DNA from: a virus | Reading direction: 5' to 3' (one strand) | DNA length: 64,000 nucleotides | Virus record (IMG/VR): IMGVR_UViG_3300017977_000066 | Span: 90,897-154,896 of that record | Position numbers and translations under genes: made by a program | The notes under the pieces: generated by a model | What the model was told of the DNA's origin: nothing | The model's database searches: none | The model's input: only the letters and a program-made list of their open reading frames with translations | Part shown: in pieces, positions 35,123 through 62,061 of the stretch | Position numbering within the stretch: position 1 is the stretch's first letter | Layout: every line of letters begins with the position of its first letter

Positions 35123-35750
35123 GATTTATTAACGGATTAGTTAGGTGTTGATTTGTACATATATAGATGTTCTATACGGGATAAACTTTGAATACTAAAA
35201 CCTATTTTAGGGGTAGGATGTTTAAAGCTGTATACAGCATGCATGTAACTTGTATAAATAAATGTTAACTAACTGTTAAAATATTACCAGCTTAGGTAGA
35301 GATGCTTAAGTTAAAATCTTGCTAATGACGGGAAGCGACTAAAGATCCATATACTAACCGAACCTGGGAAACCAGATTAATAGAGTTCGGGGCATAGTTA
35401 ACTACTATGGTATAGTAAAAAGTATGGATATGGTATTAAGTTACCAGTGCAGACGATCACTCTACTTGACTAACACTTAAAGTATGACATAACATGTACA
35501 ATGCGTAATCCGCAGCGAAGACCCTAACTCTATTAAAGACACGGGTTGTGCTCAACGACTAAGGGATTTTCCACCCTGTAGGACCCAAGTGGGTAGACAT
35601 AAGTCTTTAAATCGAAATGCTAGAGATCCTAACCTGTAATATAAGTAGTGTTATGCTTAGGAAGGATCTAGATATAGTCTGGACATGTATGGAAAGCATA
35701 CAGAAGTTCATAAGAGAACTGGTTCATCTAACGAATGGGCTGAACACACG
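35123..35750 (+). ncRNA. Group I self-splicing intron (IA-like), no intact endonuclease ORF
   Basis: P AATGACGGGAAG 35324-35, Q AATCCGCAGC 35507-16, R GCTCAACGACTA 35550-61, S AGATATAGTC 35670-79; P2 with GAGA tetraloop; P7.1/7.2-like hairpins; omega G at 35750; removal restores GG|KGTI in frame. Confidence 0.92.
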
Positions 35751-43063: not shown

Positions 43064-43681
43064 GTGAGAGCTAATATAATAAGAGTACCTAACCCAGACA
43101 TGGCATATATGTTAACATCTGGGGCTCAGCAAACACAGCAAGCAGCGGAATACTTTAAACAAGGTTATGAAAGTTTCACTGACAGGATGTCGTCTCTTGG
43201 TCAGGATTTTGCTAATGGTGTAAGCAATATGTTTAACTACTATAACGATAGCAGTATTATACAGAGTACTAAAGAGTTATTAACTACATCTGGTCTTATA
43301 ACTGGTGAAGATGTTATCTATAGACTAGGTGATGATAGCATACATAATCCAGGGTATTTGATGCGAAGATATATTATGGCTGAACCTAGTATGTACGATA
43401 AGTATGCTAACAATCGTTGTAGTGGTTATGAAGATGAGTGGTTCAACCCTGAGCCTTATGAAAAAGTAGCTACTATGAGAGAGGATTATCTTAATGTAAC
43501 TGAAGGGTTAATACAGTATGATGAGGATGATCATTCTTATACTACATTTACTTCTACAGAAGATGGTAATAACTTAAGTGTTATAGATAGGTTCACTATA
43601 CAAGATGCTTGGGATATAGTAAGAGACAAGATGATACATAATATAGATCCATCAGATATGGAGATGGGTGAACTTGGTTGA
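43064..43681 (+). CDS. Conserved phiKZ-like hypothetical protein
   Basis: GTG start after AGGAGG; MRRYIMAEP...GY...DY..V.EG...DPS motif. Confidence 0.75.
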   Translation: MRANIIRVPNPDMAYMLTSGAQQTQQAAEYFKQGYESFTDRMSSLGQDFANGVSNMFNYYNDSSIIQSTKELLTTSGLITGEDVIYRLGDDSIHNPGYLMRRYIMAEPSMYDKYANNRCSGYEDEWFNPEPYEKVATMREDYLNVTEGLIQYDEDDHSYTTFTSTEDGNNLSVIDRFTIQDAWDIVRDKMIHNIDPSDMEMGELG

Positions 43682-58798: not shown

Positions 58799-58820
58799 AG
58801 TTTCATATATTTTTTAGTAT

Positions 58821-58828
58821 TATATTAC
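58821..58828 (+). promoter_or_regulatory. Early promoter core TATATTAC
   Basis: tttttagtatTATATTACttatatGAAC. Confidence 0.75.
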
Positions 58829-58917
58829 TTATATGAACCTGTAACACACAGTGAAATAGCGATATATTGAATAAAAAAAAACAAGTAAGTCTAATCTTAC
58901 TTATAAAAGGAATGATG

Positions 58918-59679
58918 ATGGAAAATAATGAAGAGGATTTCTTAGGAGACTTACTACCAGCTTCTAGTAAAAAAGAGGATGATTTTTTAGATGGCATCAA
59001 TGCTACTACTGAAACGTCTAAGAAAACTGACTTCTCTAGTAAGAAGAGTAAGTTCACTAATGTTAGAGGTAAGAATGATATCAACCTCTGGGATAAGCCA
59101 GTTGTGCAACCAGCTGTTTTAGATACCAATAAATTTAAAACTGAAACTAATTATGCTACTATAGTATTACCTAACCCTACATACCAGCCAACTGAACAAG
59201 AGATGCTTAAGTTCAAGAAACTTTTAACATCTTTAAAAGCTAAAGAGTATAAGATAAGAGTTATCTGTAACTTTGTTAAAGCTATAAGAGAGACTCTGAT
59301 AGAGACTATGGGTATGGAGAACATCACATTCATAACACCTTGGAAAAGCTACTGTAAAGAAGATACTAAGACAGAGATGTTTATGCCTAGTGACGATAAC
59401 ATCAGAGCTGCTGCTAACTACTTCAAGAACTTCCATAAGTTCAACCCTTCTTTACAATTAATAGTAACTGGTATCTTCAGTTCTTGCTTCGGTCTTGAAA
59501 ACAATGAGCCTAGTAATATGATCATCATGTGCGATCCTTTCTATGATGGTAAGAAGTTAGACTTCACTAAGTCTAAGGATAGTAGTAATTACATCTTCTT
59601 ATCTAGAACACTAGAGCTAAACGTTTATAACATTTACAAAGATGAAGACTATGTTAGTGCTATGAAATTAGTTAACTAA
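58918..59679 (+). CDS. Divergent DprA-like/SLOG-family protein
   Basis: FITPWKSY, FGLENNEPSNMIIMCDP, LNVYNI recall the phage DprA-like pattern IYLPW..F / LG.DL..PS.FVICWTP. Confidence 0.5.
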   Translation: MENNEEDFLGDLLPASSKKEDDFLDGINATTETSKKTDFSSKKSKFTNVRGKNDINLWDKPVVQPAVLDTNKFKTETNYATIVLPNPTYQPTEQEMLKFKKLLTSLKAKEYKIRVICNFVKAIRETLIETMGMENITFITPWKSYCKEDTKTEMFMPSDDNIRAAANYFKNFHKFNPSLQLIVTGIFSSCFGLENNEPSNMIIMCDPFYDGKKLDFTKSKDSSNYIFLSRTLELNVYNIYKDEDYVSAMKLVN

Positions 59680-59689
59680 AAAAAAAAAC

Positions 59690-60033
59690 TGGATGAGTGG
59701 TTCATGCATGCTATATTTTTGTCGCGCGATAAGTATAGCGGTAGTCATGTTTGGGAAAACTAACTGTCATTCCTACGGTTAGTGTGTAGTTAAAAACGGG
59801 ATCTGCACATCAGGCTTTATTGCTTGCTAATATATATGAGTTCGTCTTGTTACCTCCTTATGATGGGACTTACTTGTGACTTTTGTTTCCATATACATTT
59901 TGTTGTTCCAAATATGTATATTGCTACCTTTTTTCTAATTTACAAGTGTTCCGCAAATATCACTTGTAGATAGTCTATTTATGCAATGCTAGCTTTTTAG
60001 CTAGTGTTGTTTGGATAGTTATTGTTTTTTTTT
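59690..60033 (+). ncRNA. Candidate structured ncRNA or long 3' UTR of tandem hairpins ending in a terminator
   Basis: At least six hairpins whose mismatches are G.U on the + strand; T10 run at the end; no ORF. Confidence 0.55.
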
Positions 60034-60056
60034 TAGTATCTGAATATGTATGGCCA

Positions 60057-60064
60057 TATATTAC
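60057..60064 (+). promoter_or_regulatory. Early promoter core TATATTAC
   Basis: caTATATTACttatacGAGC plus hairpin. Confidence 0.65.
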
Positions 60065-60097
60065 TTATACGAGCCTAAGGTTATTACTTAGCTTAAT

Positions 60098-60365
60098 ATG
60101 AACAAGGGGGGGTCTTAAATGACTCGCATGACATAGCTATGTCTAAAGGGCTGTTTAACCTAAGTGATAGATAAGTGGTGCTAAATATGAAGATATGGAA
60201 GAAGTACTAACATTAACTTTAGCTTATACTACTGATATCATAAATGCCTTAGACGAGAGAGCAGAAGGTAATTTAGATCAGTTAGGATTATTATGTAAGG
60301 GTAATGGTATGTTAGAATTAAATATGGCCAACAAGTACATAGATAGAAAAACAAATAACGATTAG
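60098..60365 (+). pseudogene. Frameshifted early gene remnant (C-terminal 56-aa frame MEEVLTL...TNND)
   Basis: Protein-like pieces in different frames; G7 run at 60106-60112. Confidence 0.4.
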
Positions 60366-60408
60366 TATAAGAAGAACCATAATAGGTTCTTCTTATCATT
60401 CTTTTTTT

Positions 60409-62061
60409 TTATTTTACATTTTCTATAAGTTCATATAAGCTAGGCATATTGAACATATGTGTACAATACTCGATAGCATTAGTTCTACCATAACTAATGT
60501 CTATATTAAACTTCTTAAAAGAGTCCTTATCAAGATCCCCTATCTTATATATCTCTCTATGAGTAGTTGCTGTAGATATATTAGCAGCCGCTGTAGCACT
60601 AGGATATGCGGATGTAATATCTAAGTCATATATAAGAGTTCTTATGTTAGTATTTATGTTGGTAAGTTCGCCATCTACTTTTATATATTTATTTTTACTA
60701 TCTTCTATATAATGGCTTATAAGAGTTATAACCCAACCATCTAATCCTAGTATCTTATCATTCTCATTAGAGTAAGCTTTAACGCCTAAGACTTTCTTAT
60801 GTTCCAGGTAGAATATAAACATAGCGTCTACGATCTTACGAGGACCTGAGTTAAATACATCACTATGACTGATGCCTGATAATAAAGGCAATGAGATGGA
60901 TAGATCGTTGGTCTTCATCTCCATAGCGAATAGTGACATAACATCCCATATATTATAGATAATATATTCTAATGGTTTACTCTTAACCATCATGATATGC
61001 CACTCTAGCCCTCTGTATTTTTCATCTACAGTATCATCGAATTTTAGCTTACCACTGATGCCTTCTTTTTTTAAGATATTATCTAGACTATAACCACCTG
61101 GTGTAGTAGCGGTACCAACCCTTATGAATCTATGAGCTGCCATAGCATCCAATATGGTATAGTTAGCAGTACACTTAATGGTGTTCCAGATATCTTCTGG
61201 ACTTAGACTCATCTCTCTACCAGCTTCAGTTATCTTCTTAGCTCTCCCCTCTCTAAATTCAAAATACTTATACTCTTCTGGTATCTCATCATAGTGAAAT
61301 ATGGAAGCAGGATCTACTTGTCTCTCTTGTAGCTTATCTAAGATCTCTGTTATATCATACTTAACATTCCATGCTGCTAATGTATCTATATCCGAGTAGT
61401 TAGCTGTTTGGAATATGAATCTTATCATATCTATCTCATCATCGAAGAACTTAAGTTCTAACTTAACATTGTTCTTGAGTGACTCTCCATCATCAGGTAC
61501 ATATCTAGTATAGAGTTCTTGTAGTCTATCCTTATTAAGCTTAGTATCATCTACGAAGCTTTTTAAGATAGCTGTTACAACTTTACCTTTAGTGATAAGA
61601 GAGATAAGTATGATATCATTCTTTAAGGTATCTACTTCTATATCGAAGAACCCTATCCTATCTGGAGATGGATCTCTGTTTAGTTTTTTATTATAGACAT
61701 GCTTCAAGATGGTTCTAGAGTCAGTATCTAGTCCATATACATATGGAGACTCTTTTATCCGTCTTGGATCTGTTATACCTATATACCTAGAGCCTAGTCT
61801 TCTAGATACACTCTTATAAAGAGAGCTCTGAGTAGAAGTGAACATATCTACTCTATTTAAGTCTTCATACTCTAGCTTATCTATATATTTCTGATAGATA
61901 GGTTTGGTAACCCAGAAGGGCCTTTTAAAGTCTTTTATAACTCTGATGTTATCCTCATAAACACCATCTTTATATTTTACTTCTTTTACTATATGAATAT
62001 CATCCCCTACCTCTCTAAATGAGAAGTAATTCACTATCTTAGCTTCTACTTGTTCTCCCAT
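60409..62061 (-). CDS. B-family DNA polymerase, exonuclease plus motif A half (phiKZ gp82-like)
   Basis: ExoI FFDIE, ExoII AWNVKYD, ExoIII YNIWD, motif A DLDITSAYPS. Confidence 0.9.
   Translation of the reverse strand: MGEQVEAKIVNYFSFREVGDDIHIVKEVKYKDGVYEDNIRVIKDFKRPFWVTKPIYQKYIDKLEYEDLNRVDMFTSTQSSLYKSVSRRLGSRYIGITDPRRIKESPYVYGLDTDSRTILKHVYNKKLNRDPSPDRIGFFDIEVDTLKNDIILISLITKGKVVTAILKSFVDDTKLNKDRLQELYTRYVPDDGESLKNNVKLELKFFDDEIDMIRFIFQTANYSDIDTLAAWNVKYDITEILDKLQERQVDPASIFHYDEIPEEYKYFEFREGRAKKITEAGREMSLSPEDIWNTIKCTANYTILDAMAAHRFIRVGTATTPGGYSLDNILKKEGISGKLKFDDTVDEKYRGLEWHIMMVKSKPLEYIIYNIWDVMSLFAMEMKTNDLSISLPLLSGISHSDVFNSGPRKIVDAMFIFYLEHKKVLGVKAYSNENDKILGLDGWVITLISHYIEDSKNKYIKVDGELTNINTNIRTLIYDLDITSAYPSATAAANISTATTHREIYKIGDLDKDSFKKFNIDISYGRTNAIEYCTHMFNMPSLYELIENVK

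What the first reader, a model, noticed from the sequence alone, without database searches (positions are those of the whole stretch)
59690..60033. Multi-hairpin non-coding RNA candidate displaying anti-Shine-Dalgarno-like loops
Seen: ~340 nt without an ORF in a gene-dense genome, made of tandem hairpins at 59710-39, 59760-82, 59783-809, 59844-69, 59891-921 and 59939-70, then a terminator hairpin and T10. Stem mismatches are G.U on the + strand and would be A.C on the - strand, so the folded strand is +. Loops and linkers are pyrimidine-rich: CAUUCCU, ACCUCCUUA (matching the canonical 16S anti-SD tail), UUGUUCC, GUUCC and UUUCCAU. UCAUUCCU is complementary to the upstream gene's own SD/start AGGAAUGA (58908-15). 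UUACCUCCU is complementary to AGGAGGUAA (43054-62). Inference: an early phage sRNA or 3' UTR that occludes ribosome-binding sites or titrates an RNA-binding protein. The matches are short and may be chance.
Basis: partly seen in the sequence, partly recalled or inferred. Interest (0 to 1): 0.75.

Follow-up and report, generated by a model that had tools for sequence, protein, structure and literature searches.

The report
Orphan folded RNA in jumbo phage
The 355 gene-free bases at the end of an early transcript of an uncultured phiKZ-like giant phage fold into an unusually stable multi-hairpin RNA. Its open loops carry UCC / anti-ribosome-site motifs, but it matches no catalogued RNA family and none of the relatives I could read has it, so the idea that it blocks ribosome-binding sites remains untested.

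Summary
Window 59680-60034 has no credible ORF. On the + strand it folds at -106.4 kcal/mol (z -6.9 against shuffles), lower than all 1288 same-size windows of the 155-kb contig, and the fold is unusually well defined. The - strand folds far worse, because 22 of 119 pairs are G.U. A phiKZ-type early promoter sits at 58801-58839 and drives a 254-aa ORF. The RNA follows that ORF's stop codon and ends at a strong hairpin plus U10, so it is a long 3'UTR or a 3'UTR-derived sRNA.

Four of nine hairpin loops carry UCC, against 0.24 expected. One loop holds a 9-mer identical to the E. coli-type 16S 3' tail. The match to the upstream gene's own RBS is at chance level (P 0.22). Pairing to the phage's start sites overall is no better than for shuffled RNA.

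No homologue was found in Rfam, in phage records, by pattern scans of three collections, or by a covariance model run on four relatives. Relatives at about 50% identity carry protein genes, or an unrelated folded gap, at this slot.

Earlier notes of this scan describe about 340-nt anti-SD-loop RNAs beside the DNA polymerase gene of other jumbo phages. Whether they are homologous to this RNA is untested. Function remains inferred.

The parts
58801..58839 (+). phiKZ-type early (virion RNAP) promoter: T-rich upstream block plus TATATTAC core at 58821-58833. It is the likely start of the transcript that carries the RNA.
   Evidence: One of 11 near-identical + strand copies in the window. The core is 14-fold enriched upstream of genes. 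The motif is given as the phiKZ promoter in PMC7058600, Table 2.
58915..59679 (+). 254-aa early ORF of unknown function; the start may be 58915 or 58918. It has a weak SLOG/DprA-like Rossmann fold. The RNA begins at its stop codon.
   Evidence: Homologues at 95, 71, 62, 54 and 33% identity. No Pfam or PHROG hit. Fold hints only.
59676..59687 (+). A-run, with the CU of the stop-codon region. It can pair with the terminal U10 (60025-60036) and close the whole RNA.
   Evidence: A 13-nt perfect inverted repeat; paired in the MFE. It is low-complexity, so the weight is small.
59710..59739 (+). Hairpin H1
   Evidence: -8.5 kcal/mol, z -1.8.
59740..59928 (+). Five-way junction domain closed by 59740-56 / 59906-28. 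It holds H2 59759-83 (loop 59768-74 with UCC), H3 59784-808, H4 59811-26, H5 59836-77 (loop 59853-60, the 16S-tail-like motif) and a weak hairpin at 59878-904 (loop with UCC).
   Evidence: Pair probabilities are near 1. The domain has z -4.3 on + and is much weaker on -.
59938..59971 (+). Hairpin H6: 11 bp with a 12-nt loop starting with UUCC.
   Evidence: -10.3 kcal/mol, z -5.5.
59975..60034 (+). Terminator: a 7+12-bp hairpin (59975-60018), then a U-rich spacer and U10 (60025-60034).
   Evidence: -21.1 kcal/mol, z -6.9. The simple scanner missed it because of an internal 1x1 loop. Function is inferred.
60057..60396 (+). Next, separate early cassette: a TATATTAC core without the upstream block, a structured leader, an orphan 56-aa ORF (60195-60365) and a bidirectional terminator (60367-96). 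It bounds the RNA on the right.
   Evidence: The ORF has no homologue other than itself.

Best explanation
The stretch is the 3' part of an early phage messenger. Transcription starts at the TATATTAC promoter at 58821 and runs through the 254-aa ORF. It continues for about 355 nt and stops at the hairpin plus U10 at 59975-60034.

This tail folds into a defined body: H1, a five-way junction with H2 to H5, H6, and the terminator. It is kept either as a long 3'UTR or, after cleavage, as a stable 3'UTR-derived small RNA.

Its open loops present UCC-type pyrimidine words. The H5 loop carries a copy of the 16S anti-Shine-Dalgarno tail. The most likely action is base pairing of these loops with GGA / Shine-Dalgarno sequences of messengers, which would hinder ribosome binding and perhaps invite a double-strand RNase. 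The targets would be phage genes with the CAUAAGGAG-type start site, and possibly host genes. This is how the C-rich loops of staphylococcal RNAIII / RsaE and the icaR 3'UTR work.

Shown: the fold, the strand, the lack of a coding frame, the promoter and terminator context, the UCC enrichment in loops, and the complementarity to RBS words. Inferred: transcription, processing, and every step of the mechanism.
For: - Fold and strand.
- It has the most negative energy per nt of all 11 gaps of 200 nt or more in the contig, beyond the group I intron.
- Early promoter family, and no promoter word inside the RNA.
- UCC in 4 of 9 hairpin loops against 0.24 expected.
- The loop bases of H2 and H5 have unpaired probability of 0.9 or more.
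- The 9-mer identical to the E. coli-type 16S 3' end has P about 0.0005.
- 36 of 152 start regions have 7 nt or more complementary to the H5 loop region, against 2.4% of random windows. The commonest RBS 9-mer of the phage (ACATAAGGA, 7 of 123) is its mirror.
- The SD of the early gene at 43066 is a perfect 9-nt match.
- Working precedents: PMC3868564 (icaR 3'UTR anti-SD) and PMC2790875 (unpaired UCC-rich motifs of the Rsa RNAs and RNAIII).
Against: - There is no expression data.
- No homologue was found, so there is no covariation and no test of loop conservation.
- Relatives with about 50% identical polymerase lack the RNA at the slot.
- Duplex energies to 152 start regions are not better than for shuffled RNA.
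- The own-RBS match is at chance level.
- Any CCUCC word matches many SDs by construction, so the 24% figure mostly reflects SD enrichment in start regions.
- After correcting for the 60% G+U content the fold is only z -2.2 against native windows.
- The motif tests were chosen after seeing the motifs.
Confidence: 0.35

Rival explanations
1. A purely cis-acting 3' end. The hairpin stack protects the early messenger from 3' exonucleases and insulates it from the next early promoter at 60057. The loop motifs have no trans function.
For: It shares promoter and terminator with the ORF and has no promoter of its own. A terminator directly followed by a promoter fits the self-contained early cassettes seen elsewhere in this genome. 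Target pairing is not better than for shuffles.
Against: One terminator hairpin would be enough for protection. 355 nt with a five-way junction and a very low ensemble diversity is more than other units of this genome carry; only about 10 gaps exceed 200 nt. UCC enrichment in loops is not explained.
Confidence: 0.25
2. A protein-binding RNA, acting as decoy or scaffold. The repeated UUCC-containing loops are sites for a phage or host RNA-binding protein, possibly the product of the upstream ORF.
For: Four loops share UUCC / CUCC. Three share a longer GUU(U)CC...A(A)AUAU pattern. The upstream protein has a weak SLOG/DprA-like nucleic-acid-binding fold.
Against: No protein partner is identified. 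The fold hits are weak (E 3e-3 to 1e-2, pLDDT 63). Homologues of the ORF in G004 and G006 come without the RNA.
Confidence: 0.15
3. No RNA function. The stretch is a decaying or recently acquired filler in a variable slot, or a DNA-level site (origin or protein-loading site) next to the polymerase gene.
For: The slot between the 254-aa gene and the polymerase gene differs in every relative read: four genes in G004, two in G006, and an unrelated folded gap in G005. The RNA is an orphan.
Against: No trace of the relatives' genes is left in it. It has no repeats elsewhere in the genome. The strong + / - asymmetry through G.U pairs points to RNA rather than DNA. GC equals the genome mean, so there is no AT-rich unwinding block.
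Confidence: 0.17
4. The functional strand is the - strand. Its hairpin loops would display GGA words, as in CsrB / RsmZ-type sponges that titrate CsrA-family proteins.
For: The reverse complements of the UCC loops are GGA loops. Several hairpins still form on the - strand (H6 -7.8, 59891-921 -7.8 kcal/mol). An A-run at the left end would read as a U-run.
Against: The - strand fold is weak (z -2.5). All 11 early promoters are on the + strand, and no promoter word points leftwards into the region. The hairpin before the left-end U-run has only 4 bp.
Confidence: 0.05
5. It encodes a small hydrophobic protein, in the 45-49-codon frame 59824/59836-59973.
For: An open frame exists.
Against: It has no SD and a TTG or unsupported ATG start. 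It has no homologue, and the frame is not even on record as a called gene for this contig. U-rich sequence gives hydrophobic frames by itself. The frame runs through the most stable stems.
Confidence: 0.03

Closest known systems
icaR mRNA 3'UTR of Staphylococcus aureus (PMC3868564)
   Same: It is a long 3'UTR behind a short ORF, in a low-GC system with strong SDs. It carries an unpaired pyrimidine anti-SD word that can pair with an RBS, in cis or in trans, blocking ribosomes and creating an RNase III substrate.
   Different: There the pairing with the gene's own SD was shown by compensatory mutations. Here the own-RBS match is at chance level, and the better matches are to other genes. The motif is UCC / CCUCC rather than UCCCC. 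This is a phage, not a chromosome.
RNAIII (RF00503) and the RsaE/RoxS-type sRNAs with C-rich loops (PMC2790875, PMC2837412)
   Same: They are multi-hairpin RNAs ending in a terminator, with several unpaired C-rich words in hairpin loops that bind SD sequences of targets.
   Different: No sequence or structure match to any Rfam model, these included. No promoter of its own is recognisable. The loops are U-rich with CC rather than CCC.
3'UTR-derived sRNAs of bacteria that share the mRNA terminator (CpxQ, SroC type; from my own knowledge)
   Same: The position directly after a stop codon, the shared intrinsic terminator, and the lack of an own promoter.
   Different: Those are 50-150 nt and Hfq-dependent, with a mapped RNase E 5' end. 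This one is about 355 nt, and processing is unknown.
sRNAs mapped in jumbo phages phiKZ and 201phi2-1 (PMC11512511, PMC8244752)
   Same: Non-coding transcripts of phiKZ-like phages found between genes, with function unknown.
   Different: Those are under 250 nt, mostly arise by premature termination in 5'UTRs, and were found by transcript mapping. This one lies 3' of an ORF, is larger, and rests on sequence alone.
About 340- to 540-nt folded RNAs with anti-SD loops beside the DNA polymerase gene of other nucleus-forming jumbo phages
   Same: The size, the neighbourhood of the polymerase gene, the exposed loop that mirrors the phage's own RBS word, and the absence from Rfam.
   Different: Homology was not shown. 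A look-up by sequence found no look-alike, and I could not read those sequences. Here the RNA lies 3' of the polymerase gene on the opposite strand.
CsrB / RsmZ sponge RNAs
   Same: A chain of hairpins with a short repeated word in the loops.
   Different: Their word is GGA on the transcribed strand. Here GGA appears only on the poorly folding - strand, which lacks a promoter.

Membership tests
Any Rfam 15 family (incl. RNAIII RF00503, GOLLD, ROOL, pRNA, CRISPR-DR, tRNA/tmRNA) | Score at or above the family's gathering threshold | tested here: not met
   The only hit in the window is the group I intron at 35267-35703. With E up to 10 on 59500-60400, only noise of 20 bits or less appears. ARAGORN finds nothing.
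phiKZ-type early transcription unit | TATATTAC promoter core with a conserved upstream block, on the strand of the element | tested here: met
   The core at 58821-58833 is an exact copy of the window consensus and has the T-rich upstream block. The motif is documented for phiKZ.
phiKZ-type early transcription unit | Transcript detected early in infection | not testable with these tools
   This is an uncultured IMG/VR contig and no RNA data are held.
3'UTR-derived sRNA / long regulatory 3'UTR | Begins after a stop codon, has no promoter of its own, and ends at the mRNA's intrinsic terminator | tested here: met
   The stop codon is at 59677-79. No TATATTAC or TTTGAA word lies in 59680-60034.
3'UTR-derived sRNA / long regulatory 3'UTR | Seed region and structure conserved among relatives | tested here: inconclusive
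   It is absent from G001 and G004-G006 (slots).
Anti-SD base-pairing regulators (RNAIII / RsaE / icaR type) | Unpaired C/U-rich word in loops, complementary to SD sequences | tested here: met
   The loops at 59768-74 and 59853-60 are unpaired with probability of 0.9 or more. UCC is enriched in loops.
Anti-SD base-pairing regulators (RNAIII / RsaE / icaR type) | Pairing to targets better than chance, and an effect on translation | tested here: not met
   Duplex energies to 152 start regions are not better than for shuffles (P 0.08-0.37). The own-RBS match has P 0.22. The effect on translation cannot be tested here.
CsrA-sponge RNAs (CsrB/RsmZ type) | Multiple GGA words in hairpin loops of the transcribed strand | tested here: not met
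   The + strand shows UCC, not GGA. GGA loops exist only on the - strand, which folds poorly and has no promoter.
Intrinsic terminator | GC-containing hairpin directly followed by a U tract | tested here: met
   The hairpin is 59975-60018. It is followed by a 16-nt tail with 13 U, including U10. The simple scanner did not list it.

The most novel reading that the evidence does not exclude
This RNA would be one member of a so far undescribed class of jumbo-phage regulators. These would be large, early-made, folded RNAs placed next to the DNA polymerase gene. They would display a mimic of the ribosome's anti-Shine-Dalgarno tail and mirror the phage's own RBS word. They would either time translation of a set of phage genes or compete with ribosomes for host and phage start sites. 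The class would be analogous rather than sequence-conserved, which would explain why relatives carry unrelated folded RNAs or genes in the same slot.
Probability: 0.2. Interest if true: 0.75.

Novelty: new variant of a known kind. Interest (0 to 1): 0.45.

Why it matters
Very few phage-encoded regulatory RNAs of lytic phages have a known job. For phiKZ-like giant phages only short, uncharacterised candidates have been mapped (PMC11512511, PMC8244752). A large early RNA that shows ribosome-site mimics would point to translational timing by RNA in phages that already separate transcription from translation. It would also give a simple handle, loop mutants, to test that idea. As it stands, this is a well-folded orphan with no expression or conservation evidence, so its value is as a candidate, not a result.

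Tried and rejected
- Known families: Rfam at gathering and at E up to 10, and tRNA/tmRNA, gave nothing.
- DNA similarity to 50,697 phage records: none.
- Second copy or repeat family in the contig: none.
- Relatives through the 254-aa protein, the RNAP beta piece and the polymerase, as single sequences, in IMG/VR: none.
- Relatives through alignment A1 in IMG/VR, JGI metagenomes and GTDB genomes: none confirmed.
- Trick of searching a spurious 49-aa frame of the RNA, to recover relatives' sequence through called ORFs: no candidate.
- Loop-anchored and exact patterns in viral, metagenome and genome collections: 0 hits.
- Single-sequence covariance model of the junction domain on G000, G001 and G004-G006: only itself.
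- Decayed gene: tblastn with the six proteins that fill the slot in G004 and G006 gave nothing.
- MITE-like insertion: the 13-nt terminal inverted repeat is an A-run / T-run without a target duplication. Rejected.
- Internal promoter: there is a TATATTGC word at 59915, but it lacks the upstream block and has the invariant A changed. Sigma-70-like sites number fewer than in shuffles. Rejected.
- Gene-free stretch before the polymerase gene of G004: not structured (z -0.5 / -1.5).
- Resemblance of H2 to 16S helix 45: 6 of 8 positions on each arm, not independent of each other, and no SSU hit in Rfam. Rejected as chance.
- Cultured relatives: none for the 254-aa protein. The best polymerase hit is 34% identical (Bacillus phage AgentSmith).

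Full report
WHERE IT IS. The window is the last 64 kb of a 154,896-bp IMG/VR contig with 33% GC, estimated 58% complete. The phage is phiKZ-like. It has a split multisubunit RNA polymerase: 57515-58798 matches PHROG 2962 and phiKZ gp80. It has a T4-like DNA polymerase on the - strand at 60409-62061 and a group I intron. The nearest cultured phages share only about 30% protein identity.

THE OBSERVATION. Between the stop codon of a 254-aa ORF (58915-59679) and the next ORF (60195) there are 515 bases without a credible frame. The first 355 of them, 59680-60034, are the finding.

The + strand folds at -106.4 kcal/mol. Shuffles give -75.5 +/- 4.5, so z is -6.86. The - strand gives only -64.8, z -2.5. 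The difference comes from G.U pairs, which make up 22 of the 119 pairs.

Against the genome itself the picture is more sober but still positive.
- None of 1288 + strand windows of the same length folds as low. After regression on GC and on the unusually high G+U content (60%), z is -2.2.
- At the 150-nt scale the region ranks 137 of 3091.
- Its energy per nucleotide is the most negative of all gaps of 200 nt or more, beyond the group I intron.
- The fold is unusually unambiguous. Ensemble diversity is 30, against 96 +/- 24 for shuffles and 93 +/- 24 for native windows, and none of 80 controls fell below 48.

ANATOMY.
- An A-run at the stop codon can pair with the terminal U10.
- H1 is 59710-39.
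- A five-way junction is closed by a 17-bp long-range stem (59740-56 / 59906-28). It holds H2 (59759-83, 7-nt loop), H3, H4 and H5 (59836-77, 8-nt loop).
- H6 is 59938-71.
- A 19-bp hairpin (59975-60018) is followed by a U-rich tail with U10.
- Single hairpins reach z values from -1.8 to -6.9.

TRANSCRIPTION CONTEXT. Eleven near-identical promoter blocks lie in the window, all on the + strand. Each has a T-rich upstream element and the core TATATTAC, followed by a conserved leader. The core is 14-fold enriched upstream of genes in the contig, and it is the published phiKZ promoter word (PMC7058600).

One copy sits at 58801-58839, in front of the 254-aa ORF. Another core, without the upstream block, sits at 60057, just after the U10. 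It heads a separate small cassette with an orphan 56-aa ORF and a terminator.

Neither this word nor the second enriched word (TTTGAA) occurs inside 59680-60034. So the RNA is most simply the 3' end of the early ORF's transcript. Transcription itself is inferred.

THE LOOPS. Unpaired bases are 67% pyrimidine. UCC occurs five times, against 2.2 expected. It lies in four of the nine hairpin loops, against 0.24 expected, and no shuffle out of 150 reached three. This test was framed after seeing the motif.

The H5 loop plus one closing base spells the 9-mer of the E. coli-type 16S 3' end. That has P about 0.0005 in shuffles, and it occurs only once on this strand of the contig.

The phage's start regions use AAGGA(G/T/A). 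Their commonest 9-mer is ACATAAGGA, and the H5 loop region is its mirror. 36 of 152 start regions have 7 or more complementary bases, against 2.4% of random windows.

Much of this follows simply from carrying a CCUCC word.
- Over all 152 start regions, duplex energies are not better than for dinucleotide shuffles of the RNA (P 0.08 to 0.37).
- The 8-mer match to the gene's own RBS appears in 22% of shuffles.

CONSERVATION. This is the weak point. No Rfam family, tRNA or tmRNA matches. No DNA match exists in phage records, and there is no second copy in the genome.

The 254-aa protein has homologues at 95, 71, 62, 54 and 33% identity.

Through the promoter word and an alignment of the polymerase I reached IMG/VR relatives with 50-55% identical polymerase.
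- In G004, four protein genes lie between the ORF homologue and the polymerase gene.
- In G006, two ORFs fill the slot.
- In G005, the slot is a 351-nt gap that is also strongly folded (z about -5 on both strands) but unrelated in sequence.

No trace of the relatives' genes is left in our RNA. A covariance model of the junction domain finds only itself, and four pattern scans found nothing. So the RNA is an orphan in a variable slot, and its stems and loops cannot yet be tested by covariation.

WHAT IT MOST LIKELY IS. It is a real + strand structured RNA (my estimate about 0.8), made as the tail of an early messenger (about 0.7). For function I commit to SD / GGA pairing by the exposed UCC and anti-SD loops. 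The models are the icaR 3'UTR (PMC3868564) and the C-rich loops of RNAIII and the Rsa RNAs (PMC2790875). My confidence in this is only about 0.35.

The rivals are:
- a purely protective and insulating 3' end;
- a protein-binding decoy;
- filler or a DNA-level site;
- a - strand GGA sponge;
- a small hydrophobic ORF.

The last two are unlikely.

RELATION TO EARLIER NOTES OF THIS SCAN. Other agents reported folded RNAs of about 340 to 540 nt with an RBS-mirroring loop beside the polymerase gene of other nucleus-forming jumbo phages, some with covariation. They also reported a 'swappable' structured-RNA cassette in a rumen jumbo phage. The size, the neighbourhood and the loop logic agree with what I see here. 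However, a look-up by sequence found no look-alike, and I could not read those sequences. I therefore treat them as an untested lead. Notes on this genome's early promoters and early cassettes agree.

VERDICT. This is a new variant of a known kind: a long regulatory 3'UTR or 3'UTR-derived sRNA with anti-SD loops, here in a giant phage. Interest is moderate. The fold is convincing and the loop pattern is suggestive, but there is no transcript, no homologue and no target evidence.

Noticed in passing
window 58915-59679: The 254-aa early protein has no Pfam or PHROG family. Its C-terminal 180 residues model as a Rossmann-like alpha/beta domain whose weak best matches are DprA, YpsA and the Moco carrier protein (SLOG-type folds). 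The first 70 residues are disordered. It has a conserved TPWKSYC motif.
   Followed up: partly
window 60037-60400: A separate early cassette: a TATATTAC core at 60057 that lacks the usual T-rich upstream block, a 125-nt leader with the usual 5' hairpin, a 56-aa ORF with a poor SD and no homologue except itself (seen on 3 contigs), and a bidirectional terminator shared with the polymerase gene.
   Followed up: partly
whole contig G000 (start regions of 123 genes): The commonest RBS 9-mer is ACATAAGGA (7 genes). CATAAGGA is present in 10 start regions and only 23 times in the contig on both strands. So a subset of genes shares an extended start-site signature beyond the SD core.
   Followed up: partly
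L021:9624-9974 (IMGVR_UViG_3300026518_000015): The closest readable relative (55% identical polymerase) has a 351-nt gap at the same slot, 3' of the polymerase gene. It folds strongly on both strands (z -5.1 and -4.8) but shows no sequence similarity to the RNA studied here.
   Followed up: partly
window 59936-59971 (H6): From memory only: the 3' arm of H6 ends in UUGUAGAU and its 5' side starts with UAAUUU. This recalls the 3' handle of Cas12a CRISPR repeats, but the stem is 11 bp with a 12-nt loop and the 5' part is out of register. No CRISPR-DR family of Rfam matched. It is a lead for an RNA anti-CRISPR reading and was not tested further.
   Followed up: no
window 59796-59802 and 59768-59774: The GGGAU in the 13-nt loop of H3 could form a 5-bp kissing contact with the AUUCC of the H2 loop. 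If so, some UCC loops may serve tertiary structure rather than being free for targets.
   Followed up: no
contig G000 45903-46968 (outside the window): This is the largest gene-free gap of the contig (1066 nt). It has the strongest local folding on both strands in the sliding-window scan.
   Followed up: no
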